Shown piece after piece: positions 49,729 through 60,229 of a DNA stretch of 64,000 nucleotides. Positions within the stretch are counted from its first letter, which is position 1. The number at the start of each line of letters is the position of its first letter. The stretch is taken from positions 109,465 through 173,464 of the forward strand of contig CAZYTL010000002.1 of NCBI GenBank assembly GCA_964650355.1, read 5' to 3'. Origin of the DNA: an uncultured Gammaproteobacteria bacterium. Its GTDB lineage: Bacteria > Patescibacteriota > Microgenomatia > CAYXHB01 > CAZYTL01. The position numbers and the translations under genes were made by a program. The notes under the pieces are model-generated. The model made no database searches. It was not told where the DNA came from and was given only the letters and a program-made list of their open reading frames with translations.

Positions 49729-51990
49729 GTGATGGGAAGAAAGAAGTGGGGATTGGTAATCGGGGGATTATTGATATTTGGTTTATGGATGGTAATAGGG
49801 ATATGGACGGACCCTACTCCAAGGATTGCAGGGACGGTAAAAGTATATGACCGCAATGGACAGTTGTTACACGAATCGGCCGGACAGGTAAGGAGTCAGC
49901 AGCCAGTGAAGCTGGATGAGATACCAAAGAATTTACAGCAAGCGGTAGTGATCACTGAAGATGCCCGGTTTTGGCAACATCAGGGAGTGGATGTGGCAGC
50001 TATTATCAGGGCGATAAGTCAAAACTGGCGAGCAGGTGAAATTGTTTCAGGGGCGAGTACGATTGAACAGCAGTTGGCAAGATTCACAGTCATCAGCCCC
50101 CAGAAGCCAGCACCGGTCACGTGGCAAAGAAAGGTCCGGGAACTGATCATGGCTTGGCGCTTGGGACAATCAAAATCTAAAGAGCAAATTTTAGAAGACT
50201 ATTTAAATGTGGTGCATTTGGGCAGAGGCAGGTACGGAGTGGAAGCGGCCAGTCAAGGTTATTTTGGTGAAGACGTGAGCCATTTATCTCTGTCTCAGTC
50301 AGCGCTGCTGGCAGGGATGATTGCTAATCCAAGTGAATTTGATCCTCTAAATCATCCTGACAAAGCCCGGCAACGACGCGACTTTGTGCTCGGGCAGATG
50401 GTGGCGAAAAAGTTAATTGATGAAGAAATGTATCACAGGGCAATCGCAGAGCCTCTACCCCAGGAGATGCACGACAAATCTTATTACATGCCGCATGCGG
50501 TAGAGATGATTGATAGGCAGTTGGACGAATTGGGAATTGATAAAAATTCTGGAGTTAAAGTGTTTACGAGTTTAGATCTGGGTTGGTATCGACTGGCACA
50601 GTCGATTGCTCAAAACCAGGTGGCAAGTTTAAAAGACCAGCACAATATCACCAATGCGGCAGTGGTGGTGATGGAAAATCAAACCGGTAAGATCAGGGTG
50701 TTGCTGGGAAGCGTGGATTATTTTAATCATCAAATAGAAGGCGAAAATAATATGGCCACGGCGTTGCGTCAACCGGGATCGGCCATGAAACCAGTGACTT
50801 ACGCGGCTGCTTTCCAAAGTAAAATTGCCACGCCGGCAACCTTGATCGAAGACGTGCCTAAGGTGTATATGACTCACGAAGGCAAAGGGTGGTTGCCACA
50901 TAATTATGACGGCCGTTACCGGGGAAATGTATTGGCACGGGAGGCCTTAGCCTCTTCTTATAATTTGCCGGCAGTGGAGATGTTAGAGAGGGTGGGGATA
51001 GAGAATTTCTTAGATTTGGCACATAAGATGGGAATCACCACCATGCAGGAGACCGACCGGTACGATCTGGCCTTGACTCTGGGAGGAGGAGAAGTGAGTT
51101 TATTAGAGTTAACTAATTTATACGCTACTTTTGCCAGAGGCGGACGGTGGTCGCCGATTACTTTTATTAATCAAATTACTAATGACCAGGGTGATATTTT
51201 ATACGAATCAAAAATTAGTAAGCCGGTACAGGTGTTGGATGCTGAAGTGGCTTGGTTAATTACAGATATTTTGAGTGATGCCCGGGCCAGGATGCCGACT
51301 TTTGGCGAAAAAAATCTTTTGGTAGTGAGCAGGCCAGCGGCGGTGAAGACAGGCACGACCACTGATTGGCATGACAATTGGACGGTGGGTTACACGCCTG
51401 ATTATACGGTCGGAGTGTGGGTGGGAAACGCGGATAATTCCGCGATGCAGGATCTGACCGGGGTAACAGGCGCGGCGCCGATCTGGCACCAGGAAATGGA
51501 AGAGTTGTTTAAATTTACTCCTAAAAGTGAGTTCGTAAAACCGGAAGGGGTTAAGGAAGTAGAAATTTGCGCCTGGGACGGTCTGCTGCCGACAGCGGCA
51601 TGTACTGAACGCTATCAAGAGGAGTTTATTGCTGGTACAGAACCAAAAGAATTTACGCCTTTGACGCAAAAACCCACCGTGGTGACGACCGGAGAATTGC
51701 AAATTATTAACCCTAAGTCAGGGGCAGTGTTTGCTATTAATCCGCCGGAAAAAAATCAAATTGTATTAGAAGCGGCCGCGAACCCGGAAATCAGGAAAAT
51801 AACCTGGACCTTAGATGGCAATGAACTGACTGATAAAGATTGTGCGGAATTGGATAAATATAGTTGTGTATGGACTCCAGTGTTGGGGAGTCATCGACTA
51901 TGGGCAAATTTTTATACTGACGACCAAGGGTGGGTGGAAACTCCAGAGATAGAATTTCAAGTGGTAGAACAGAAGGCTGGATGGGAATAA
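49729..51990 (+). CDS. pbpC: class A penicillin-binding protein (bifunctional transglycosylase/transpeptidase), PBP1C-like
   Basis: GT51 motifs EDARFWQHQGVD, GASTIEQQLAR, KEQILEDYLN; TP motifs SAMKP, SYN, KTGT; immediately upstream of A2M as in yfhM-pbpC loci. Confidence 0.8.
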   Translation: MMGRKKWGLVIGGLLIFGLWMVIGIWTDPTPRIAGTVKVYDRNGQLLHESAGQVRSQQPVKLDEIPKNLQQAVVITEDARFWQHQGVDVAAIIRAISQNWRAGEIVSGASTIEQQLARFTVISPQKPAPVTWQRKVRELIMAWRLGQSKSKEQILEDYLNVVHLGRGRYGVEAASQGYFGEDVSHLSLSQSALLAGMIANPSEFDPLNHPDKARQRRDFVLGQMVAKKLIDEEMYHRAIAEPLPQEMHDKSYYMPHAVEMIDRQLDELGIDKNSGVKVFTSLDLGWYRLAQSIAQNQVASLKDQHNITNAAVVVMENQTGKIRVLLGSVDYFNHQIEGENNMATALRQPGSAMKPVTYAAAFQSKIATPATLIEDVPKVYMTHEGKGWLPHNYDGRYRGNVLAREALASSYNLPAVEMLERVGIENFLDLAHKMGITTMQETDRYDLALTLGGGEVSLLELTNLYATFARGGRWSPITFINQITNDQGDILYESKISKPVQVLDAEVAWLITDILSDARARMPTFGEKNLLVVSRPAAVKTGTTTDWHDNWTVGYTPDYTVGVWVGNADNSAMQDLTGVTGAAPIWHQEMEELFKFTPKSEFVKPEGVKEVEICAWDGLLPTAACTERYQEEFIAGTEPKEFTPLTQKPTVVTTGELQIINPKSGAVFAINPPEKNQIVLEAAANPEIRKITWTLDGNELTDKDCAELDKYSCVWTPVLGSHRLWANFYTDDQGWVETPEIEFQVVEQKAGWE

Positions 51991-52051
51991 GCAAAGAATT
52001 TAATTAAAGTCATCGTTGACAAGCTATCAGATTTAAATTCACAATAAGATA

Positions 52052-55000
52052 ATGGCGGAACAGGAGGTGCCGAGGGGTGGGATTGGGAATAAAGCGGTGG
52101 AAGACGTGGTTGCCAATTCACCCGACAGTTTACCGAATACTGATAAGGCGAAGTTCAGAGGTTTTAAATTGATGGGGTGGTTTCATGAAGATCACAGAAG
52201 GTTACGGCATTTATGGTTAGTGCCGATAATTTATTTGGGGATATGGGCCGGGAGATACGGGGAGCAAATCATTCGATGGCGGCAATCCGGACAGATTAAT
52301 CATCCACTGATGGGTAAGTATTGGCAATACCTGGGTGCAACCGGTTTACTGATGGCTCTGCTGATTTTAAGGTATCTGCGAGTGCCACTATTTATGAAAG
52401 CGCTGGAGGTGGCCAAAAGAATGATTGAGTCAATCGTGGTGAGGTTGACTAAATCGTTAATGAATTGGGGAACTGAATTTTTACACGCGCCAGTAAAACA
52501 AAAGTTGTTGAAGTTGAAACTGCCCTTGTTGTTAGTCATCCTTTATGTCGGATATGCGTTTTACGGTCATTTGTTCGCTCCGCCGAAGATCACGGTAACT
52601 TTTCCTGGTGATGATGGCAAAAACATTCCGGTAGACACGACGATAGAAATTCAGTTCAGCCGGGAGATGAACAAAGAGTCGGTAGAGAAAGCTTTTAGCA
52701 TTAATCCGGGAGTGCCAGGTAATTTTGATTGGGAAAGTGGAGGCCGGGTGATTTTCCAACCGAGTGAAAGCCTGGCTTTGCACCAGGAGTACACGGTAAA
52801 GATCGGACGATGGGCGATGTCATCCTGGATGATTCCCAAATTGGTCGATGACGAGTTTAGTTTCAATACCCTGGGACACCCCACGGTGCTGTTAGCCAGC
52901 CCGCAAACTGAAGCGTTAGATGAGTTGAATTCTATCACGGTGATGTTTGATCGGGCGATGATTCCACTGACTACGGCCACGAACAGCGCGCTCAAGCAAC
53001 CGGCTTTCACGGTCACCCCAGAAATTAAGGGCGAGGGCCGCTGGCTGGGAACGACTGCTTATCAATTCCGGCCCAGCGAGCCTTACCAATTGGCATCGAC
53101 GTACACTTACCGGGTGGAAGCGGGATTAAAATCTGAAGACGGAGGCGAACTCCAGGAACCGGCTGTGTTTTCCTTCTCGACTCCCCGTCCTCATGTGGTA
53201 GCGGTGTCGCCAGCCCGGGGTTACAAATATGCTAATCCGGTGGCGTCGGTTTCGGCGACGTTAAGTCAGACAGTGGATTTCAGTTCTGCTAAAGAAAATG
53301 TTAAACTTTTTTACTTAAACGGCATTAGTTATGATGAGGTGCCATCAAAATTAGTAGTAAATAAGGAACAAATCGGGTTATATCCATTAAGTCCTTTAAA
53401 GAGAGAAGGGCTATACGAGGTAAAAATATTTCCCGGGCTATTGTCTACTAATGGCCCCAATGGTTTAGAAAATGAATATAATTGGAATTTTAATGTGGCT
53501 AAATTACCAGAGGTGGTAAGTACTAATCCGAAAGATGGCGCTCAGGATGTGACCGGTGAGCATCTGATAGAAGTATGGTTTGCCACACCCATGGATGAGG
53601 ATTCGTTTAAGGACAGAGTGATTATTTCTCCGGCGCCCGACAGTAACCCCACTGAATATTTTTCCACCTATAATGACGCTAACCGATTAGCGATCGGCAC
53701 GTATTTGGGCCGGTCAAAAAACTATACCATCACGATCAGCGGGCAGGTTAAGGATCAGTACGGAGTAGCCCTGGGACAGGACTATACCTTTTCTTTTAGC
53801 ACAGCACCTTATCAGCCCAGTATCAGTATTCAGCCCAGTAATTTGTACTTTGCCACTTTTAATCAGCGAGTAGTACCCAGAATTGTGGCCAAGGTGGTGA
53901 ATGTAAACCAGGTCAGTTACCGGTTGTATAAGTTACCCAGGGAAGAATTTTTAAAGTTATTTAGATATAGATTTGACTATAATGTTAACAAAGATTTAAG
54001 GAATTGGCAGGCTTATGATACTTCAGGGTTGGAACTGGTCAGGGAGTGGGAGGAGAATTTTACCATTAACGATAATGTGCCGGTAAATGTGATTACCAAA
54101 GTGGAGATGGCAAACGGAGAAATGATTTCCCCGGGGTTGTATTTCCTGGAGGCAAAGATTCCTACTGGGAAGCACGATAACCTGGCCATGGTAGTGAGCC
54201 AGGCAGCTTTGACTTTGAAAACGGCAGCGCAGCAATCATTGGTTTGGGCAGTAGACCAAAGCAGCGGTCAGGTAATTCAAGGCATGAAACTGGAATTAGT
54301 TAATAAGTCGGGTACGGTCTTGGATCAGGGACAGACTAATCAAGACGGAGTTTATCTGTCGGACAAATCCTTGGGAAGTGTTGATAGTTACAGCAATCCG
54401 GTATTCGCTTTTGCCAGTAAGGATCCGGATGCGACGGTGGTGACGAATGCCTGGGGTGAAGGGATCAGAACCTATGATTTCGGATTGCAGCAGTATTATG
54501 ACCCTCAGGAGAGGGATGAATGGGGGACGCAAAGAAAATTAAAGTTGTATGTGATGCTGGATCGGCCCATCTACAGGCCGGGGCAGACGGTCTACTTCAA
54601 AGGAATCGCACGGGAAGATAACGACGGTAACTATCGGTTACTGGACCAGGCGAACCAAGTCCAAGTGGCGGTAATGGATGATCAGCAAAAATTGATTTAT
54701 AATTCGTCACTACCCATGACAGGATACGGGACTTTTTCAGGAAGTTTTGATTTGGGCAAAGAAGTTAGCGTGGGTTATTATCAGCTGAAAGTAAGTTTGC
54801 TAGGCAACGGATTTCAGCAACAATTCCAGGTTGAAGAGTACCAAAAGCCGGATTTTGAAGTCAAAGTGAGTAGTGATCGGCCCAATTATGTGACGGGCGA
54901 ATCTGCGGTGATGAGTGTAGATGCTAATTTTTATTTCGGGGCTCCTGTGGATGAGGCGCCGGTGCAGTGGACGATGACCACGATGGATGCGCCTTACAGA

Positions 55001-58000
55001 TGGTCAAAAGATACCCGGTTTGAATTTGGCGAATCTGACAGTTATTGGTACCGGCCGTGGTGGTATTTTACTGACAACTCTTATTATGGAGGGCAAAGAA
55101 TAGCTCAAGGTAAGGGCAAAACAGATGATAAGGGTCATTATGAAGTCATTAGGCCGCTCAATATTAGCGACAAGTCAACTAACCAACGCATCAGGATGGA
55201 AGCGGTGGTGGAAGATCAAAGTAACCGGTCGATTGCTAATTCCCAAGAATTTGTGGTTTATCAGGCAGGGCAATTAGTGGGCATCAAACCCGAACGCTAT
55301 TCTGGCCAAGTGGATAACGAAGCCAGAGTGGAAGTGGTGACGATTGATACTAATGGCCAGGAAATAGCTGACCGCCCGGTAACAGTGAATTTTTATAAGC
55401 GCACCTGGAATACGGTAAAAGAAAAAGATGAGGATACCGGAGAATTTTATTGGACGAGCAAGCCCAGCGATGAGTTAAAAGCTTCGCAGTCAGTGGTAAC
55501 CGGAGCTATCGGCAGGGCGACAGCGGCGTTTGTGCCTAACGAAGGGGGCAGTTATTACGTGACTGCGGAAAGCGTTGATAATGCCGGCAGGGTGTTTAAA
55601 TCAGGTACTTACTTATGGATTTCCGGCCATGGCTTTAGCGCCCGGAGGGACAACCACGACCGGATTGTGTTGGTGCCTGACAAGCAAACTTACTCCATCG
55701 GAGAGGTAGCCAGTGTGTACGCGGCAGTTCCTTATGAACAGACTACCGGGCTGGTAACGGTGGAACGGGCTAATGTGCTGGATTATCAAATAATCAGGAC
55801 CACGCCTGATAACCAGAATTTTTCAGTCGCGATTAAGGATAACTACTCGCCGAATGCTTATGTGTCGGCTTTGTTGGTCAAACCCGGGGCAGAGGTAAAG
55901 AATCCGGCTGAGTTTAAGATGGGAGTGACAGAGATCAGGGTGGATAATCCGAAAACTAAGGTGGGGGTATCAATTAATCCTGATAAACCCAAATACGGCC
56001 CGGGGGAAACCATGAAAGCAGTGATTAGCACCAAAGACGGAACCGGCAAACCAGTGCAGACGGAACTGGCAGTGGCCATGGTGGATCAGGCAGTGTGGAG
56101 TTTGGCCAGGGCAAGTTTGGCAGATGTTTACGAAACTTTTTACCGGCCGCGCAACTTGGGAGTCTATACCAGTCAGGGATTGACGATTTCCATGGACCGG
56201 ATTAATGCCAATGTTAACCTGGGAAGCAAGGGCGGTTCGGGTGGAGGATGTTTTACCGGAGAGACTTTGATTTTGATGGGCGACGGAAGTAAAAAGATGA
56301 TTAAGCAGGTGGCGACTGGTGATTGGGTGTTAACTCGCAAAAATGAGCAGACAGACGAGATGGTGTCGGCCAAAGTAGAGCAGGTATTTGTGCACGACGT
56401 AAACGAAATTTTGGTGATTAATGATCAGTTACAAACCACAAGGGTACACCCGATTTACACCCAGAGAGGTTGGTTAACCGCGGGCGAGTTGCAAATCGGA
56501 GACCAGATGATGGATAGAGACGGCCACTGGGTGATAGTCACTAAGTTAGATGTGCAACAGACTGCCAAACGGGTGTATGATTTGGCAGTTGGTCAGTATC
56601 ACACTTATTTTGCCGGTGACATCTGGGTGCATAACAAAGGCGACGGTTTGATGACCAGCAGGGAGAATTTTCTGGATACGGCTTACTGGGAAGCGCATTT
56701 GGAAACTAATAATCAGGGACAGGCGGAAATTAACGTTGATTTGCCGGATAATCTGACCACCTGGAGACTGGCCGGGGTAGCGGTGAGCAAGGAAACAGCC
56801 GTGGGTAGTACTGAGAAGCAGGTGTTAGTGACCAAAGATGTGTTGATTCGGCCATTGTTGCCAAGATTTTTGTCCGTAGGAGATAAACCGCAACTAGGGC
56901 TGGAAGTGCATAATACCACGGGAGCAGGACAAAATCTGCAGACCAGCTTGATGGATGTGTCAGGTTTGCAGTTGCAGGCAAGTGTGAATCAGCAAATTTA
57001 TGTGCCGGCTGGTGGTTCGCGGCAGGTGTTCTGGCCGGTAACAGTAGCTGGAGGAGAAGAAGCTAAATTAACCATGGTGGTGCGCAATAATGGTCAGGTG
57101 GTTGATGCAGTAACCAAGACCCTGCCAGTGAAATCTTACTTTACTCCGGAAACAGTGGCCACGGCCGGTCAGGCAGCTGATGTGGGACAGGAAACGATTC
57201 ATTTACCAGCTGATGTGGTAGCTGATCAGGGATCTTTAACCATTGGACTGTCCCCTGCCTTGGGCGCTGGAGTCCAAGACGCGGCCAGTTATTTACTTGA
57301 TTATGCTTACTGGTGCGCTGAACAGACGGTTAACCGACTGATGCCGGCAGTGAATTTACTGCAATTGGCGCGGGAAACTAAGACGCAGACAATTGGCGGC
57401 CAGTCAACCGCCAGATTGGAACAGCTAGCTAATGATGCGATCCAAAGACTGGTGAGGAGCCAACACCCGGATGGGGGTTGGGGCTGGTGGCCCACTTACC
57501 CGTCCAGTCCGATGATCTCCACCATGGTCATGGATGGGTTATGGGCAGCTAAGAGTTATGGATTAACAGTGCCGGAACAAACAATCAGTCAAGGATGGGG
57601 ATATTTAAAGCGGTCTTTATCATCAGACCAGGAATCTCTGGATGTGCAGGCGTATATAGCGGCCACGGTATCGCAGGCAGAAAAGGTCGACGCTGGTGTG
57701 CTCTCCGGATTGATGGACCGGAGATGGGAAATGAAGTTACTGGGAAGAGCATATTTGTGGCTGGCCATAGAGCACAACGGGGGCAATCGCCAGGACGAGT
57801 ATCGATTAAGAGATGAGTTGTTATCGCAAGCCCGCAAGACTAATACATCGGTGCATTGGGAAGAGGAGAAGACTAATTGGTGGTTAATGAGTAGTTCCAC
57901 TACATTGACATCGGCCGTATTAGAAGGACTAACAGAAAACGATCCGCAACATCCTTTAATTTCAGAGACGGTCAGGTGGTTGATGCAGGTGCAACAAGAC

Positions 58001-58744
58001 GGACATTGGCGAACCACCAGGGATACAGGCGCGGCAGTGAAGGCGTTGACAAAGTTGTTATTGGCACAAAAGGCCGGATCGGTGGATGAACAATGGAAAT
58101 TAGAAGTTGATAACCAGCGTAGGGATGAAGGAGCATTCAAGACCAGCGATTTGTTGAAACAGGTGGTGAATACTATTCCCATAGCCGAAATTCCCAAAGT
58201 TCAAGACGTGCCGGTGACCATTAGTAAAAGCGGCAAAGGCAATCTGTTTTATAATATGAATCTGAAATATTATCTGCCGTTTGAACAAGTGGAGCCTCTG
58301 GAGCAAGGCATGGTGATGGTGAGAGAACTGGTGGACAAGAAAGGCAACCTGCTGCCGCCGGATAAGGTATCCACAGCAGATGAGATTTGGGTGCGACTGA
58401 TTCTAGTCACCCCGGATGAACGACACCACCTGGTACTGGAAGATCCGTTACCGGCTGGATTTGAGCCGGTAAATGAGAGTTTGGCCACCACATCATTGAT
58501 GAACGTGGAGCGACTGACCAGACCCAAGGACAGGAAGCCATTATATTTCCAACATCAAGAAATGCGGGATGACCGAGTGGTGCTGTTTGCCGAATGGGTG
58601 CCGGCCGGAGTGTACGAGTATACTTACCGGGTGAGGCCGACGACTCCGGGAAGTTATCATCATCCTCCCGCTCAAATTTATAACATGTATTTGCCTGATA
58701 TCTCCGGACATTCGGCTGGGGGATGGTTGGAAGTGACTGATTAA
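52052..58744 (+). CDS. alpha-2-macroglobulin family protein (bacterial A2M), membrane-anchored, with intact CAEQ thioester motif and an inserted Hint domain in the bait region
   Basis: N-terminal TM; MG-type repeats; post-bait A2M signature FLDTAYWEA…LPDNLTTWRLAG (cf. human FPETWIWD…PDTITEWKAG); thioester YAYWCAEQ at 57314..57325; C-terminal A2M receptor-binding-like domain. Confidence 0.85.
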   Translation: MAEQEVPRGGIGNKAVEDVVANSPDSLPNTDKAKFRGFKLMGWFHEDHRRLRHLWLVPIIYLGIWAGRYGEQIIRWRQSGQINHPLMGKYWQYLGATGLLMALLILRYLRVPLFMKALEVAKRMIESIVVRLTKSLMNWGTEFLHAPVKQKLLKLKLPLLLVILYVGYAFYGHLFAPPKITVTFPGDDGKNIPVDTTIEIQFSREMNKESVEKAFSINPGVPGNFDWESGGRVIFQPSESLALHQEYTVKIGRWAMSSWMIPKLVDDEFSFNTLGHPTVLLASPQTEALDELNSITVMFDRAMIPLTTATNSALKQPAFTVTPEIKGEGRWLGTTAYQFRPSEPYQLASTYTYRVEAGLKSEDGGELQEPAVFSFSTPRPHVVAVSPARGYKYANPVASVSATLSQTVDFSSAKENVKLFYLNGISYDEVPSKLVVNKEQIGLYPLSPLKREGLYEVKIFPGLLSTNGPNGLENEYNWNFNVAKLPEVVSTNPKDGAQDVTGEHLIEVWFATPMDEDSFKDRVIISPAPDSNPTEYFSTYNDANRLAIGTYLGRSKNYTITISGQVKDQYGVALGQDYTFSFSTAPYQPSISIQPSNLYFATFNQRVVPRIVAKVVNVNQVSYRLYKLPREEFLKLFRYRFDYNVNKDLRNWQAYDTSGLELVREWEENFTINDNVPVNVITKVEMANGEMISPGLYFLEAKIPTGKHDNLAMVVSQAALTLKTAAQQSLVWAVDQSSGQVIQGMKLELVNKSGTVLDQGQTNQDGVYLSDKSLGSVDSYSNPVFAFASKDPDATVVTNAWGEGIRTYDFGLQQYYDPQERDEWGTQRKLKLYVMLDRPIYRPGQTVYFKGIAREDNDGNYRLLDQANQVQVAVMDDQQKLIYNSSLPMTGYGTFSGSFDLGKEVSVGYYQLKVSLLGNGFQQQFQVEEYQKPDFEVKVSSDRPNYVTGESAVMSVDANFYFGAPVDEAPVQWTMTTMDAPYRWSKDTRFEFGESDSYWYRPWWYFTDNSYYGGQRIAQGKGKTDDKGHYEVIRPLNISDKSTNQRIRMEAVVEDQSNRSIANSQEFVVYQAGQLVGIKPERYSGQVDNEARVEVVTIDTNGQEIADRPVTVNFYKRTWNTVKEKDEDTGEFYWTSKPSDELKASQSVVTGAIGRATAAFVPNEGGSYYVTAESVDNAGRVFKSGTYLWISGHGFSARRDNHDRIVLVPDKQTYSIGEVASVYAAVPYEQTTGLVTVERANVLDYQIIRTTPDNQNFSVAIKDNYSPNAYVSALLVKPGAEVKNPAEFKMGVTEIRVDNPKTKVGVSINPDKPKYGPGETMKAVISTKDGTGKPVQTELAVAMVDQAVWSLARASLADVYETFYRPRNLGVYTSQGLTISMDRINANVNLGSKGGSGGGCFTGETLILMGDGSKKMIKQVATGDWVLTRKNEQTDEMVSAKVEQVFVHDVNEILVINDQLQTTRVHPIYTQRGWLTAGELQIGDQMMDRDGHWVIVTKLDVQQTAKRVYDLAVGQYHTYFAGDIWVHNKGDGLMTSRENFLDTAYWEAHLETNNQGQAEINVDLPDNLTTWRLAGVAVSKETAVGSTEKQVLVTKDVLIRPLLPRFLSVGDKPQLGLEVHNTTGAGQNLQTSLMDVSGLQLQASVNQQIYVPAGGSRQVFWPVTVAGGEEAKLTMVVRNNGQVVDAVTKTLPVKSYFTPETVATAGQAADVGQETIHLPADVVADQGSLTIGLSPALGAGVQDAASYLLDYAYWCAEQTVNRLMPAVNLLQLARETKTQTIGGQSTARLEQLANDAIQRLVRSQHPDGGWGWWPTYPSSPMISTMVMDGLWAAKSYGLTVPEQTISQGWGYLKRSLSSDQESLDVQAYIAATVSQAEKVDAGVLSGLMDRRWEMKLLGRAYLWLAIEHNGGNRQDEYRLRDELLSQARKTNTSVHWEEEKTNWWLMSSSTTLTSAVLEGLTENDPQHPLISETVRWLMQVQQDGHWRTTRDTGAAVKALTKLLLAQKAGSVDEQWKLEVDNQRRDEGAFKTSDLLKQVVNTIPIAEIPKVQDVPVTISKSGKGNLFYNMNLKYYLPFEQVEPLEQGMVMVRELVDKKGNLLPPDKVSTADEIWVRLILVTPDERHHLVLEDPLPAGFEPVNESLATTSLMNVERLTRPKDRKPLYFQHQEMRDDRVVLFAEWVPAGVYEYTYRVRPTTPGSYHHPPAQIYNMYLPDISGHSAGGWLEVTD
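56249..56635 (+). other. Hint (mini-intein / bacterial intein-like) domain, aa 1400-1528 of the A2M protein
   Basis: Block A CFTGETLILMGDG, block B LQTTRVHPIYTQRGWLTAGELQIGDQM (TxxH), blocks F/G VYDLAVGQYHTYFAGDIWVHN; no homing-endonuclease insert; +1 residue Lys; preceded by Gly-rich linker GSKGGSGGG. Confidence 0.75.
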
Positions 58745-58763
58745 GGCAAACGGATCGAGAAGC

Positions 58764-60047
58764 ATGAAGAAGATACTGGAGTCGCATTTACTGTGGTGGA
58801 TATGTTGGTTAGTGGTGTGGGTGGTATTGGCTTGGTTGATGGTAAGTTTCCGGGATCCGGACTTTGGCTGGCAATGGCGAACAGGTGAATGGATCTGGCA
58901 ACATGGGCAAATCCCTAAAACGGATTTGTTTTCTTACACCATGCCTGATTATCCCTGGCATTATCCGGCCTGGCTGGCAGAGGTGATGTTTTACTGGATT
59001 TATATCAGGTTAGGTTATACAGGCCTAGCAATCGGGTTGGCAGGATTGGTGAGCATAGGGTGGGTGTTACAGATTCCTAAAATGAAGATGAAGTACTATC
59101 TGTTACCTTTGGCGCTGGTAATGGCCGCAGGAGGATGGTTGATATCAGTGAGAGCCAAGATGTTGAGTTTGTTGCTGGCAGGAGTGCTTTTTTGGATATT
59201 AAGAAAGGCTGAAGATAAACCGCAATGGTTATGGGGGTTACCCGGGTTGTTTTGTCTGTGGAGTAATTTGCACGGTGGGGTAGCGATCGGGTTGGTAATT
59301 TTGGGTTGGTGGATAATAACGGAGTTATCAGTTTTTAGTTTTCAGTTTTCAGATCTCAGAAAAGAACAGACAAGATTTAAGAAACAAGAGAGAGACATTT
59401 GGATGAAGAGAATCATTGGGGTGGGTTTAGGGTCGGGATTGGCTTCATTAATTAATCCCTTTGGTTGGCGAGTTTATGAGGAGGTTTATCAAACGCTAAC
59501 CAGCAGGCAGCTGCAAGGGCAGGTAAATGAGTGGTTGCCGATCAATGTGCATAATCCGGCATTGATAGTTTATGTGTTAGGATTAGGAATTTTGGCTGTC
59601 AAATGGCGGAAGAAATTATCCTGGTTTGAGGTATCCACCAGTGCGGGTCTGTTGGTGGGAAGTTTGTTCAGCAGGCGACTGTTGGTTTATTTTTTGTTGT
59701 TTAGTTTAGCAATTTACGGCCGGTTATTAGAGCGGGCGGTTGAATGGTTGAAAAGCAGAAAGGAGTATCAATTTATTTGGCTGTGGCGATCAGGATTGGT
59801 GATCGGGGGATGCTTATGGGCAGGCTGGTTAATTTGGCACACCCAGAAAGACTTAACCCAGGTAAGCGAAACTAATTATTATCCCATGAAAGCGGTCGAG
59901 TATTTGAAGCAACATTTGCCGGAAGGAGAAATGTTTTCGGTTTATAACTGGGGCGGATATCTGATTGACAAGCTGCCCGAAAAACAGGTATTTGTAGACG
60001 GGAGAATGGCGATTTGGGAAAAGGATGGTTATTCGGCTTTTAGATAG
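58764..60047 (+). CDS. polytopic membrane protein (possible GT-C-like), 20 nt downstream of A2M
   Basis: 427 aa, ~9 TM helices plus C-terminal soluble domain; probable co-transcription with A2M. Confidence 0.4.
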   Translation: MKKILESHLLWWICWLVVWVVLAWLMVSFRDPDFGWQWRTGEWIWQHGQIPKTDLFSYTMPDYPWHYPAWLAEVMFYWIYIRLGYTGLAIGLAGLVSIGWVLQIPKMKMKYYLLPLALVMAAGGWLISVRAKMLSLLLAGVLFWILRKAEDKPQWLWGLPGLFCLWSNLHGGVAIGLVILGWWIITELSVFSFQFSDLRKEQTRFKKQERDIWMKRIIGVGLGSGLASLINPFGWRVYEEVYQTLTSRQLQGQVNEWLPINVHNPALIVYVLGLGILAVKWRKKLSWFEVSTSAGLLVGSLFSRRLLVYFLLFSLAIYGRLLERAVEWLKSRKEYQFIWLWRSGLVIGGCLWAGWLIWHTQKDLTQVSETNYYPMKAVEYLKQHLPEGEMFSVYNWGGYLIDKLPEKQVFVDGRMAIWEKDGYSAFR

Positions 60048-60229
60048 GAAAGACAAATTTTAAGCGGGGAAATTGATTATCGACCGGTGTTTGAGCACTA
60101 CGGAGTTAATACTGCGTTGCTACCTATGGTTCAAGGCCGACTAACACTAGGAGACAAGTTGCAGCAGGATGGCTGGCAAGTGGCTTATGAGGATGAGAAG
60201 GCCGTGGTATTGAATAAGGAGTGAATTTA

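What the first reader, a model, noticed from the sequence alone, without database searches (positions are those of the whole stretch)
49729..60047. pbpC-like class A PBP, giant membrane-anchored alpha-2-macroglobulin, and a polytopic membrane protein as one apparent operon
Linkage of bacterial A2M with PBP1C is established (E. coli yfhM-pbpC) and is thought to couple protease trapping with cell-wall repair. Here the A2M is unusually long (2230 aa against ~1650 for ECAM). It has an N-terminal TM rather than an obvious lipobox, retains a CAEQ thioester, and is followed 20 nt later by a 427-aa polytopic membrane protein of unknown function.
Basis: partly seen in the sequence, partly recalled or inferred. 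Interest (0 to 1): 0.5.

Follow-up and report, generated by a model that had tools for sequence, protein, structure and literature searches.

The report
Self-processing Hint domain inside bacterial alpha-2-macroglobulin bait
A candidate-phyla-radiation bacterium pairs a cell-wall synthase (PBP1C) with a giant membrane-anchored protease trap (alpha-2-macroglobulin) whose protease-sensing "bait" loop carries a self-cutting intein-like domain, a combination I could not find described and which could let the trap mature or fire without an outside protease.

Summary
Gene 1 is a PBP1C-type class A PBP. Gene 2 is a thioester (CAEQ) alpha-2-macroglobulin (A2M) with a transmembrane N-terminal anchor. 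The pbpC–A2M pair is conserved in related Microgenomates (Patescibacteria/CPR) and Chloroflexota loci.

The third gene is not a conserved partner (0 of 88 related loci). It is an uncharacterised GT-C-fold glycosyltransferase cut short by an in-frame TAG.

The extra length is about 450 aa of N-terminal TM and Ig-like domains, plus a 129-aa Hint domain (aa 1400-1528, nt 56249-56635) inserted in the disordered bait region. It is a type-A bacterial intein-like (BIL) domain:
- Its best PDB match is 2LWY (E 1e-14).
- Cys1, TxxH and C-terminal His-Asn are invariant.
- The +1 residue is Lys, not a nucleophile.

At least 98 Patescibacteria A2Ms carry it at the same site, with the junction GG|CF…VHN|xKG. 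Two alleles 99.4% identical differ by exactly these 129 codons.

The most likely mechanism is post-export self-excision, leaving the bait loop religated or nicked. The outcome is untested. I found no paper describing this architecture.

The parts
49729..51990 (+). pbpC-like bifunctional class A PBP (753 aa; the GTG start is followed directly by ATG at 49732)
   Evidence: Pfam Transgly 2.4e-60, Transpeptidase 1.9e-26, BiPBP_C 27.2 bits vs cut-off 26.8. TIGR02073 PBP_1c 504.3 bits vs cut-off 494.2. Motifs EDARF(77), SAMKP(351), SSYN(409), KTGT(540).
52052..58744 (+). Membrane-anchored, thioester-containing alpha-2-macroglobulin (2230 aa) with an inserted Hint domain
   Evidence: 15 Pfam families. 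The C-terminal 690 aa align end to end with Salmonella A2M and ECAM (4U48, 4RTD). Homologues are Microgenomates proteins.
52052..52579 (+). N-terminal cytoplasmic/TM anchor region (aa 1-176; 2-3 hydrophobic segments, no lipobox)
   Evidence: Kyte-Doolittle scan. Homologues have 1-4 segments, and the last one always abuts the first Ig-like domain.
52598..53806 (+). N-terminal Ig-like (Big_5/Big_10) domains, approximate bounds aa 183-585
   Evidence: Pfam Big_5 5.4e-46 in 4 stretches, Big_10 at aa 183-249. The query has about 450 more residues N-terminal to the BRD than Sa-A2M (query aa 1203 aligns with Sa-A2M 751).
54194..55582 (+). MG domain block (bMG3, MG2, bMG5, bMG6; aa 715-1177)
   Evidence: Pfam hits.
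55670..56101 (+). Bait-region domain (A2M_BRD, aa 1207-1350)
   Evidence: Pfam 1.6e-15. Aligns with ECAM 734-914 in 4RTD numbering.
56141..56248 (+). Disordered N-side bait linker ending in the conserved NLGSKGGSGGG (aa 1364-1399)
   Evidence: AF2 pLDDT below 50. The motif is conserved in 68 homologues. Together with the Hint it replaces ECAM 915-954, which contains the disordered bait Arg923-Leu942.
56249..56635 (+). Type-A bacterial intein-like (Hint) domain, 129 aa: Cys1400 … Thr1463-x-x-His1466 … Val-His1527-Asn1528
   Evidence: Pfam PT-HINT 3.2e-18. PDB 2LWY BIL domain, E 1.2e-14 over the full length. Foldseek 2LWY TM 0.84 and BIL2 6Y75 TM 0.80. AF2 pLDDT 91-97. Catalytic residues invariant in 41/41 homologues. 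It is the only Hint in the window.
56636..56668 (+). C-side junction and linker KGDGLMTSREN (aa 1529-1539). Lys1529 is the +1 residue, so there is no Cys/Ser/Thr nucleophile.
   Evidence: AF2 pLDDT below 50. Lys is conserved next to the junction in 96/98 Hint-bearing A2Ms and in 0/27 Hint-less ones.
56678..56941 (+). MG7 ('A2M' Pfam domain, aa 1543-1630)
   Evidence: Pfam 7.2e-20.
57275..57613 (+). N-terminal part of the thioester domain. The thioester motif CAEQ is at 57314-57325 (aa 1755-1758).
   Evidence: Pfam TED_complement 29.7 bits vs cut-off 22. Alignment to Sa-A2M YPYGCLEQ.
58322..58699 (+). C-terminal MG domain (bMG10) with RDDR (58565-58576) and YNMY (58679-58690) thioester-pocket motifs
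   Evidence: Pfam 3.5e-30. Motif positions. Motif roles from PMC4498604.
58764..60226 (+). GT-C-fold glycosyltransferase gene of an uncharacterised Patescibacteria family, interrupted by an in-frame TAG at 60045-60047. It is not a conserved neighbour of the A2M.
   Evidence: No Pfam or NCBIfam hit. 462 homologues of about 470-530 aa. E/D/Q at the TAG column. AF2 pLDDT 93. Foldseek hits to STT3, PglB, AglB, AftA and DPY19. Invariant D31-x-D33. 0/88 related loci have a homologue nearby.

Best explanation
This is a conserved two-gene envelope-defence unit of a Microgenomates-group (Patescibacteria/CPR) bacterium. It consists of a PBP1C-type peptidoglycan synthase followed by a thioester A2M. The A2M is anchored by N-terminal TM helices and extended by extra Ig-like domains.

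The disordered bait loop of the A2M carries a catalytically intact type-A bacterial intein-like (Hint) domain.

Proposed mechanism:
1. After export and folding, Cys1400 undergoes an N-to-S acyl shift onto Gly1399. This step is inferred from invariant Cys1 and TxxH.
2. Asn1528 cyclises and cuts the C-terminal junction. This step is inferred from the invariant His-Asn.
3. There is no +1 Cys/Ser/Thr, so the flanks cannot be joined by the canonical branched intermediate. Either an amine attacks the Gly thioester (the new alpha-amine, or the conserved junction Lys forming an isopeptide), or the loop stays nicked.
4. The excised product has a Gly-rich bait loop equivalent to that of the naturally Hint-less alleles. 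The protein then works as an ordinary protease-triggered thioester trap next to PBP1C.

The Hint behaves evolutionarily as an old insert that co-diverges with its host and can be exchanged as a cassette. The downstream GT-C glycosyltransferase gene is a local, probably inactivated neighbour and not part of the system.

Shown: identity, position, residue conservation and population behaviour. Inferred: that processing happens, when it happens, and its product.
For: Identity:
- PT-HINT 3.2e-18.
- 2LWY type-A BIL, E 1.2e-14 over the full length.
- Structural match to 2LWY (TM 0.84) and to BIL2 6Y75 (TM 0.80).

Position:
- The insert lies between the BRD and MG7 and replaces ECAM 915-954, which holds the disordered bait.
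- In the AF2 model the Hint is confidently folded (pLDDT 91-97) between two disordered linkers.

Catalytic competence:
- Cys1, Phe2, Thr64/His67, Val-His-Asn and other positions are invariant in 41/41 homologues, while overall divergence is 43%.
- The Hint evolves at the same rate as the host (p-distance 0.426 vs 0.425, r = 0.94).

Equivalence of the product to Hint-less alleles:
- The insertion site is identical in 41 Hint+ homologues, and 27 Hint- homologues keep the same KGGSGGG…TSR frame.
- P0020 and P0039 are 99.4% identical, sit in the same genomic context, and differ by exactly the 387 nt from Cys1 to Asn129.

Ligation chemistry:
- Reviews state that type-A BILs splice through amine attack on the N-terminal thioester, although cleavage products dominate (PMC4031507).
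- BIL2 forms a Lys isopeptide (PMC8616854).
- Lys next to the junction is present in 96/98 Hint+ A2Ms and 0/27 Hint- A2Ms.

The A2M remains a trap:
- The thioester motif and pocket motifs are retained here and in 72/94 Hint+ proteins.
- pbpC linkage is found in 41/88 loci.
Against: - There is no experimental evidence for any step.
- The literature says type-A BILs mainly give cleaved rather than ligated products. In ECAM, cleavage of the bait is exactly what untethers it and activates the thioester. A nicked loop might therefore mean a pre-fired trap.
- CxEQ is lost only among Hint+ homologues (7/41 vs 0/27, Fisher p = 0.037, not corrected for phylogeny). This hints that the Hint changes how much the thioester matters.
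- Long-term retention without a homing endonuclease, and Hint-specific junction residues, argue that the domain may do more than remove itself.
Confidence: 0.5

Rival explanations
1. Self-triggering or two-chain A2M. The Hint only cleaves (at the N-junction, the C-junction or both) and does not religate. The bait is then cut autocatalytically. This either matures the protein into two non-covalently associated chains, as furin does for complement C3/C4 at the equivalent position, or fires the conformational change and exposes the thioester without any attacking protease. One possible use is to fix the protein covalently to the cell's own wall or to a host-cell surface.
For: - BIL domains 'produce predominantly cleaved products' (PMC7664689; PMC4031507).
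- In ECAM, untethering the bait is sufficient to release the TED (PMC4498604).
- Thioester loss is seen only in Hint+ homologues and in 15/53 of the wider Hint+ set. This fits relaxed or altered use of the thioester.
- The domain is retained at the same site across Microgenomates and Parcubacteria without a homing endonuclease.
Against: - Alleles 99.4% identical with and without the Hint coexist in the same genomic context. That is hard to reconcile with a radically different activation mode.
- Most Hint+ proteins keep CxEQ and the protective pocket.
- The conserved junction Lys and the GG flanks look like ligation determinants.
Confidence: 0.25
2. Conjugation module. As in Hedgehog (cholesterol) or Tetrahymena BUBL BIL2 (Lys isopeptide to other proteins), the Gly1399 thioester is resolved by an external nucleophile. 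This would covalently attach the membrane-anchored N-terminal 1399 residues to peptidoglycan, an S-layer or a trapped protein, and release the C-terminal part.
For: - The invariant GG|CF junction resembles the Hedgehog Gly-Cys-Phe site (my own knowledge).
- BIL2 transfers its N-extein to lysines of other proteins (PMC8616854) and is a top structural match.
- The gene is linked to a peptidoglycan synthase.
Against: - The invariant C-terminal His-Asn (98/98 by selection, 41/41) is not needed for such transfer.
- The Hint-less alleles show that the protein works without it.
- No candidate acceptor has been identified.
Confidence: 0.07
3. Inert passenger. The Hint stays in the loop unprocessed, either as a structural bulge or extended bait, or as a decaying relic of an intein.
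For: The loop is disordered and tolerant of insertion. The domain is dispensable between near-identical alleles.
Against: - All catalytic positions are invariant across 41 sequences at 43% mean divergence, and the rate equals that of the host domains.
- The same junction is conserved in 57 more distant proteins.
- A decaying relic would lose Cys1 or Asn first.
Confidence: 0.08
4. All three genes form one functional operon, in which the polytopic membrane protein works with the A2M and PBP1C.
For: Same strand, a 19-nt spacer, and no terminator-like hairpin in either spacer.
Against: - 0/88 related loci have a homologue of gene 3 near the A2M.
- Four other lineages each have a different downstream gene.
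- Gene 3 carries a premature TAG.
- Its family is widespread in Patescibacteria independently of the A2M.
- A sigma-70-like site in the pbpC–A2M spacer is not above the shuffle expectation, so it does not help either way.
Confidence: 0.1

Closest known systems
Type I bacterial alpha-2-macroglobulins: E. coli ECAM/YfhM and Salmonella Sa-A2M (PDB 4RTD, 4ZIQ, 5A42, 4U48), encoded next to pbpC
   Same: - MG domains, BRD, MG7, TED with CxEQ, and a C-terminal MG domain with RDDR/xxMY motifs.
- The C-terminal 690 aa align end to end.
- Membrane-anchored and extracytoplasmic.
- Adjacent to a PBP1C gene (PMC4498604).
   Different: - TM-helix anchor instead of a lipobox.
- About 450 extra N-terminal residues with Big_5 Ig-like domains.
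- Gene order is pbpC then A2M. As I recall, it is yfhM then pbpC in E. coli.
- The organism probably has no outer membrane (my own knowledge of CPR).
- The bait is a short, conserved Gly-rich loop that carries a 129-aa Hint domain.
Type-A bacterial intein-like (BIL) domains, e.g. Clostridium thermocellum BIL (PDB 2LWY); Pfam PT-HINT
   Same: - About 130-aa mini Hint fold.
- N-terminal Cys, TxxH, C-terminal His-Asn and no +1 nucleophile.
- Located in an extracytoplasmic protein.
- E 1.2e-14, 30% identity, TM 0.84.
   Different: - Described BILs sit in hypervariable regions of non-conserved proteins, or before toxin domains (my recollection of Amitai 2003, cited in PMC7664689).
- This one occupies one fixed site in a conserved protein family, with conserved extein junction residues (GG|…|xKG).
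- It shows intein-like presence/absence alleles.
Tetrahymena BUBL BIL2 (PDB 6Y75/6TMM)
   Same: Top structural match (TM 0.80). It resolves the N-terminal thioester with a Lys epsilon-amine to make an isopeptide (PMC8616854). This is a precedent for a role of the conserved junction Lys.
   Different: It is eukaryotic, flanked by ubiquitin-like domains, and conjugates to other proteins. No such activity has been shown here.
Class 1 mini-inteins (e.g. Ssp DnaB, PDB 1MI8)
   Same: - Hint fold with Cys1 and His-Asn.
- Precise in-frame presence/absence between near-identical alleles, with a diverged flank tract.
- Insertion at a conserved site.
   Different: - The +1 residue is Lys/Gln/Asp/Glu, not Cys/Ser/Thr (Ser in only 3/98).
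- No homing endonuclease.
- The host is a secreted surface protein rather than a replication or repair enzyme.
Complement C3/C4/C5 (eukaryotic A2M superfamily)
   Same: From my own knowledge: the polypeptide is interrupted at the position equivalent to the bait (furin site plus the inserted ANA domain), which gives a two-chain thioester protein.
   Different: Processing there is by an external protease, and the insert is an anaphylatoxin domain rather than an autocatalytic Hint.

Membership tests
Bacterial type I (thioester) alpha-2-macroglobulin | MG-domain ring, bait-region domain, MG7, TED and C-terminal MG domain | tested here: met
   Pfam bMG3, MG2, bMG5, bMG6, A2M_BRD, A2M, TED_complement and bMG10, all above their cut-offs except bMG5. 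End-to-end alignment to 4U48/4RTD.
Bacterial type I (thioester) alpha-2-macroglobulin | CxEQ thioester motif in TED context, with protective Tyr, Pro and the C-terminal RDDR/xxMY motifs | tested here: met
   YAYWCAEQ…LMPAV aligns with YPYGCLEQ…LFPAL. RDDR is at aa 2172 and YNMY at aa 2210, but the Glu of ExMY is replaced by Tyr.
Bacterial type I (thioester) alpha-2-macroglobulin | Lipoprotein (lipobox) anchoring to the inner membrane | tested here: not met
   There is no lipobox. Two to three TM-like segments are present instead. This is a feature of the proteobacterial examples rather than of the fold.
Bacterial type I (thioester) alpha-2-macroglobulin | Genomic linkage to pbpC | tested here: met
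   The window itself, and 41/88 related loci.
Bacterial type I (thioester) alpha-2-macroglobulin | Protease-triggered conformational trapping and covalent capture | not testable with these tools
   Needs biochemistry.
Type-A bacterial intein-like (BIL) domain | Hint fold with N-terminal Cys/Ser and block B TxxH | tested here: met
   Cys1400 and Thr1463-Arg-Val-His1466, invariant in 41/41. Fold match.
Type-A bacterial intein-like (BIL) domain | C-terminal His-Asn | tested here: met
   His1527-Asn1528, invariant.
Type-A bacterial intein-like (BIL) domain | No nucleophilic +1 residue | tested here: met
   +1 is Lys here. Across 98 proteins it is Q/D/E/K/G in 95 and Ser in 3.
Type-A bacterial intein-like (BIL) domain | Closest sequence relatives are BIL domains rather than inteins | tested here: met
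   2LWY at E 1.2e-14, versus the best inteins at about 3e-5. Pfam PT-HINT is above its cut-off, while Intein_splicing and Hint are below theirs.
Type-A bacterial intein-like (BIL) domain | Autocatalytic cleavage or splicing activity | not testable with these tools
   Inferred only from residue conservation.
Canonical class 1 intein | Cys/Ser/Thr at +1 for trans-esterification | tested here: not met
   Lys1529.
Canonical class 1 intein | Homing endonuclease domain or a remnant of one | tested here: not met
   The domain is 129 aa with no insert.
Polymorphic toxin with pre-toxin Hint | Variable C-terminal toxin domain after the Hint, and an adjacent immunity gene | tested here: not met
   The Hint is followed by MG7–CUB–TED–MG10 of the A2M. 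No toxin or immunity gene is present.
PBP1C | Glycosyltransferase and transpeptidase modules plus the BiPBP_C C-terminal domain, scoring above the equivalog cut-off | tested here: met
   TIGR02073 504.3 vs 494.2 bits. BiPBP_C 27.2 vs 26.8 bits, which is marginal. The protein also passes PBP_1a_fam.
GT-C glycosyltransferase (gene 3) | Multi-TM GT-C fold with acidic residues in the first extracytoplasmic loop | tested here: met
   AF2 pLDDT 93. Foldseek hits to STT3, PglB, AglB, AftA and DPY19 with probability 1.0 and TM 0.5-0.6. D31 and D33 are invariant in 67 sequences. No curated family matches.

The most novel reading that the evidence does not exclude
The Hint is a built-in, protease-independent trigger or coupling device for a thioester surface protein of episymbiotic CPR bacteria. 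Autocleavage of the bait would arm the TED thioester. Alternatively, the Gly1399 thioester would be passed to a Lys or another amine. Either way the giant protein would fix itself covalently to its own wall or to a host-cell surface, or would signal.

Two Parcubacteria-type loci have an ECF sigma factor gene abutting the Hint-bearing A2M in place of pbpC. This suggests that some of these proteins act as anti-sigma-like sensors of extracellular proteolysis.
Probability: 0.2. Interest if true: 0.85.

Novelty: new variant of a known kind. Interest (0 to 1): 0.62.

Why it matters
A2M-family proteins, including complement, are defined by a bait that an outside protease must cut. A self-cutting or self-splicing domain sitting in that bait raises two possibilities. 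One is maturation like that of C3/C4 without a protease. The other is a trap that can fire on its own.

For the intein field, this is a BIL domain fixed at one site of a conserved extracellular protein. It has conserved extein residues (GG|…|xKG) and natural allele pairs with and without the domain. That makes a clean system for studying nucleophile-free ligation versus cleavage.

For CPR biology, it concerns one of the largest surface proteins of organisms that live attached to other cells.

The natural Hint+ and Hint- alleles (P0020 and P0039) make the question directly testable.

Tried and rejected
- **Polymorphic-toxin reading of the PT-HINT hit.** Rejected, because the Hint is followed by the rest of the A2M and not by a toxin.
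- **Canonical intein.** Rejected on the +1 residue and on the better match to BILs.
- **The Gly-rich KGGSGGG motif as a broadly shared sequence.** The exact motif is restricted to the Microgenomates/WWE3 clade. The Chloroflexota loci were found through another pattern (LPDNLTTWR) and have only a looser KGGGG(G) motif.
- **Exact look-up of the window's A2M in the contig index.** It found nothing, so the source genome could not be named. Relatives place it in the Microgenomates group.
- **The last homologue search, with a Hint+flank profile.** It returned mainly short fragments and added no taxonomy.
- **Promoter and terminator scans.** Fewer sites than in shuffles, so they are uninformative about the operon.
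- **Geometry of Lys1529 relative to Cys1400.** Model coordinates are not exposed to scripts, so this could not be measured.
- **Literature.** Seven searches combining macroglobulin/A2M with intein, intein-like, Hint, PT-HINT, CPR or Patescibacteria found no description of this architecture. The library lacks most subscription-journal papers, so absence is not proof.

Full report
**Observation.** The three plus-strand ORFs are exactly as reported: 49729-51990 (753 aa), 52052-58744 (2230 aa) and 58764-60047 (427 aa). The spacers are 61 and 19 nt, and the block is bracketed by minus-strand genes. The motif CAEQ is at aa 1755-1758. A hydropathy scan finds two to three hydrophobic segments in the first 176 residues and none afterwards, and there is no lipobox. 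The window has about 45% G+C.

The closest relatives of all three proteins come from Microgenomates-group Patescibacteria. The names given by sources are Roizmanbacteria, Woesebacteria, Shapirobacteria, Gottesmanbacteria and WWE3.

**Gene 1.** It has Transgly, Transpeptidase and BiPBP_C domains. It passes the NCBIfam PBP_1c equivalog cut-off, 504.3 vs 494.2 bits. The EDxxF, SxxK, SxN and KTG motifs are intact. 'pbpC-like class A PBP' is therefore correct.

**Gene 2 as an A2M.**
- Pfam finds Big_5 (four stretches), bMG3, MG2, bMG5, bMG6, A2M_BRD, A2M (MG7), TED_complement and bMG10.
- The last 690 residues align end to end with Salmonella A2M (4U48) and ECAM (4RTD, 4ZIQ, 5A42). YAYWCAEQ…LMPA lies over YPYGCLEQ…LFPA.
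- The C-terminal RDDR and xxMY motifs are present. In ECAM and Sa-A2M these guard the thioester and later bind the cut bait (PMC4498604).

**Where the extra length comes from.** Aligning with Sa-A2M gives three comparisons:
- About 450 extra residues lie before the BRD (query aa 1203 aligns with Sa-A2M 751). These are the TM region plus Ig-like domains.
- About 130 extra residues lie in the bait region (query 1380-1551 versus about 40 residues in Sa-A2M/ECAM).
- Almost none lie after it.

Residues 1400-1528 (nt 56249-56635) read CFTGETL…TTRVHP…VYDLAVGQYHTYFAGDIWVHN and form a Hint domain.
- Pfam PT-HINT scores 3.2e-18, while the intein and Hedgehog models score below their cut-offs.
- The best solved relative is the Clostridium thermocellum bacterial intein-like domain 2LWY, E 1.2e-14 over the full length. 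True inteins are at least nine orders of magnitude weaker.
- An AlphaFold model of aa 1200-1640 gives pLDDT 91-97 for the Hint, with linkers below 50 on both sides (aa 1364-1397 and 1531-1540).
- The Hint part of the model superposes on 2LWY (TM 0.84, rmsd 1.9 Å) and on Tetrahymena BIL2 6Y75 (TM 0.80). The rest matches A2M, C3, C4 and C5.
- The insert, with its Gly-rich linker, occupies the position of ECAM residues 915-954 in 4RTD numbering. That segment contains the disordered bait Arg923-Leu942.
- The residue after Asn1528 is Lys, so the canonical intein trans-esterification is impossible.

These are the defining features of type-A BILs as summarised in PMC4031507 and PMC7664689. Such domains have an N-terminal Cys and a C-terminal His-Asn and lack a +1 nucleophile. 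They can splice by amine attack on the thioester, but mostly give cleavage products.

**Comparative evidence, close relatives.** Among the 68 closest homologues, 41 carry the Hint and 27 do not.
- The site is identical in all. Hint+ proteins read …NLG[SA]KGGSGGG|CF…VHN|xKGG.DTSR.F.DTAYW. Hint-less proteins read …KGGSGGG-GG(G/D/E)G-…TSR.
- Cys1, Phe2, Thr64/His67, His128/Asn129 and about ten other positions are invariant, although mean divergence is 43%.
- Hint and host p-distances correlate at r = 0.94 and have the same mean, 0.426 vs 0.425. The Hint is therefore old, mostly vertically inherited, and as constrained as the MG domains.
- Even so, Hint+ and Hint- proteins are interleaved on a neighbour-joining tree of the host protein, with at least 13 state changes by parsimony.

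**Comparative evidence, one near-identical allele pair.** P0020 and P0039 are 99.4% identical and sit in the same gene neighbourhood, with 5 mismatches in the 8 kb upstream. They differ by an indel of exactly 387 nt, running from the Cys1 codon to the Asn129 codon. Of the 20 downstream mismatches, 16 cluster in the first 154 nt after the site. That pattern looks like allelic replacement by homologous recombination, not a simple deletion.

Consistent with two allele classes being exchanged, a residue about 10 positions downstream is Arg in 13/17 Hint- sequences but in only 1/24 Hint+ sequences of one interleaved subclade.

**Comparative evidence, wider distribution.** An exhaustive HMMER search of 1.84 billion cluster representatives with the Hint plus flanks gave 161 hits at E ≤ 1e-30.
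- At least 57 further A2Ms, mostly about 1650-1930 aa with a few truncated, have a Hint (129 aa in 52 of the 57) at the same place.
- All six of these that carry a source name are Patescibacteria: Levybacteria, Parcubacteria, Nomurabacteria and 'Patescibacteria group'. One is annotated only as 'polymorphic toxin-type HINT domain-containing protein'.
- Over all 98 Hint+ A2Ms, the junction is GG|CF in 96-98, Lys at +2 in 96 and Gly at +3 in 93. The +1 residue is D/Q/E/G/K, and Ser in only 3.
- In the window protein one residue is missing, so the Lys is at +1.
- No Hint-less allele has a Lys there (0/27).

**Thioester retention.** CxEQ is kept in 34/41 and 38/53 Hint+ proteins, and in 27/27 Hint- proteins. 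Fisher p = 0.037 for the first set, uncorrected for phylogeny.

**Neighbourhood.**
- A PBP1C-type gene adjoins the A2M in 41 of 88 related loci. This includes every Microgenomates-type locus with enough flank, and many Chloroflexota loci. The two-gene unit is therefore conserved.
- The gene after the A2M differs in each lineage, and no locus has a homologue of gene 3.
- Gene 3 has no Pfam or NCBIfam match but belongs to a large Patescibacteria family of 470-530-aa proteins.
- Its AlphaFold model (pLDDT 93) matches GT-C glycosyltransferases: STT3, PglB, AglB, AftA and DPY19. D31-x-D33 in the first loop is invariant.
- In the window, gene 3 is cut by an in-frame TAG at a column where homologues have E/D/Q. 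The conserved C-terminal 59 codons follow in frame.

**Mechanism.** The following points are shown:
- A catalytically complete type-A BIL sits in the bait loop.
- It is under purifying selection.
- It has Hint-specific junction residues.
- It can be present or absent in otherwise near-identical proteins.

The following points are inferred:
- After export, the Hint forms the Gly1399–Cys1400 thioester and cleaves at Asn1528.
- The flanks are then either joined by an amine or left nicked.

I favour restoration of a continuous, or functionally equivalent, bait at about 0.5. My reasons are that the excised product equals the Hint-less allele, that most Hint+ proteins keep the thioester machinery, and that the conserved Lys-Gly after the junction and Gly-Gly before it look like ligation determinants. 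BIL2 gives a precedent for Lys isopeptide formation (PMC8616854).

The main rival, at about 0.25, is cleavage without ligation. This is the commonest in vitro outcome for BILs. In ECAM, such a cut untethers the bait and releases the thioester. That would give a two-chain or self-firing A2M, and the Hint-restricted loss of CxEQ fits this reading. Transfer of the Gly thioester to an external acceptor, and an inert insert, are less likely.

**Novelty.** Both components are known kinds, and the pbpC–A2M linkage is established (PMC4498604). The combination is a BIL fixed in the bait of an A2M, widespread in Patescibacteria, with intein-like allele dynamics. It was not found in seven full-text searches, although the library is incomplete. 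I class it as a new variant of a known kind.

Noticed in passing
window 60045-60226: The GT-C glycosyltransferase gene is interrupted by an in-frame TAG (60045-60047). The frame continues for 59 conserved codons to 60226, and homologues have E/D/Q at that column. This could be a nonsense mutation or pseudogene, a read-through, or a sequencing error. The same 427-aa product is on record from two sources (NCBI and Logan).
   Followed up: partly
L087 5418-11586; L088 5466-11784: In two Parcubacteria-type loci, the Hint-bearing A2M is immediately preceded (abutting or overlapping) by an ECF-type sigma-70 gene instead of pbpC. The A2M has a 60-90-aa cytoplasmic N-terminus and one TM helix. This arrangement resembles a sigma/anti-sigma pair with an A2M ectodomain as the sensor. 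L087 also has an M23 peptidase with SLH domains 2 kb downstream.
   Followed up: no
window 56225-56248 and L015-L068 (bait-equivalent region): The bait position holds a short, conserved Lys-polyGly motif. It is KGGSGGG in Microgenomates and KGGGG(G) in Chloroflexota and Peribacteria A2Ms. This is unlike the variable baits of classical A2Ms. It resembles a Lys-pentaglycine cross-bridge, which suggests specificity for Gly-Gly (M23/lysostaphin-type) wall hydrolases. That is speculation.
   Followed up: partly
homologues P0021, P0025, P0026, P0027, P0030, P0042, P0046: The thioester motif is lost (S/G for Cys, or Y/H/P for Gln) in 7 of 41 Hint-bearing homologues and in 0 of 27 Hint-less ones (Fisher p = 0.037, not corrected for phylogeny). 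In the wider Hint+ set, 15 of 53 lack CxEQ.
   Followed up: partly
L001 vs L003, about 150 nt 3' of the Hint site: A cluster of 16 mismatches lies in the 154 nt right after the Hint insertion site, between otherwise 99.4%-identical alleles. In one subclade, an Arg about 10 residues downstream tracks the Hint-less state (13/17 vs 1/24). This points to exchange of Hint+/Hint- cassettes by recombination.
   Followed up: partly
proteins P0242, P0245, P0246, P0259, P0278: The closest non-A2M relatives of this Hint are proteins with 3-9 tandem Hint/BIL copies, 660-3400 aa long. Their source and function are unknown.
   Followed up: no
L008, L009, L011, L013: MAG records labelled 'uncultured Gammaproteobacteria' or 'Bathyarchaeia archaeon' carry Microgenomates-type Hint+ A2M plus pbpC loci (48-58% identity to the window). 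They are probably mis-binned or mislabelled contigs.
   Followed up: no
window 52016-52045: A sigma-70-like site (TTGACA-18-CACAAT, 10/12) lies in the pbpC–A2M spacer. Overall, promoter-like and terminator-like sites are not more frequent than in shuffled sequence, so this carries little weight.
   Followed up: no
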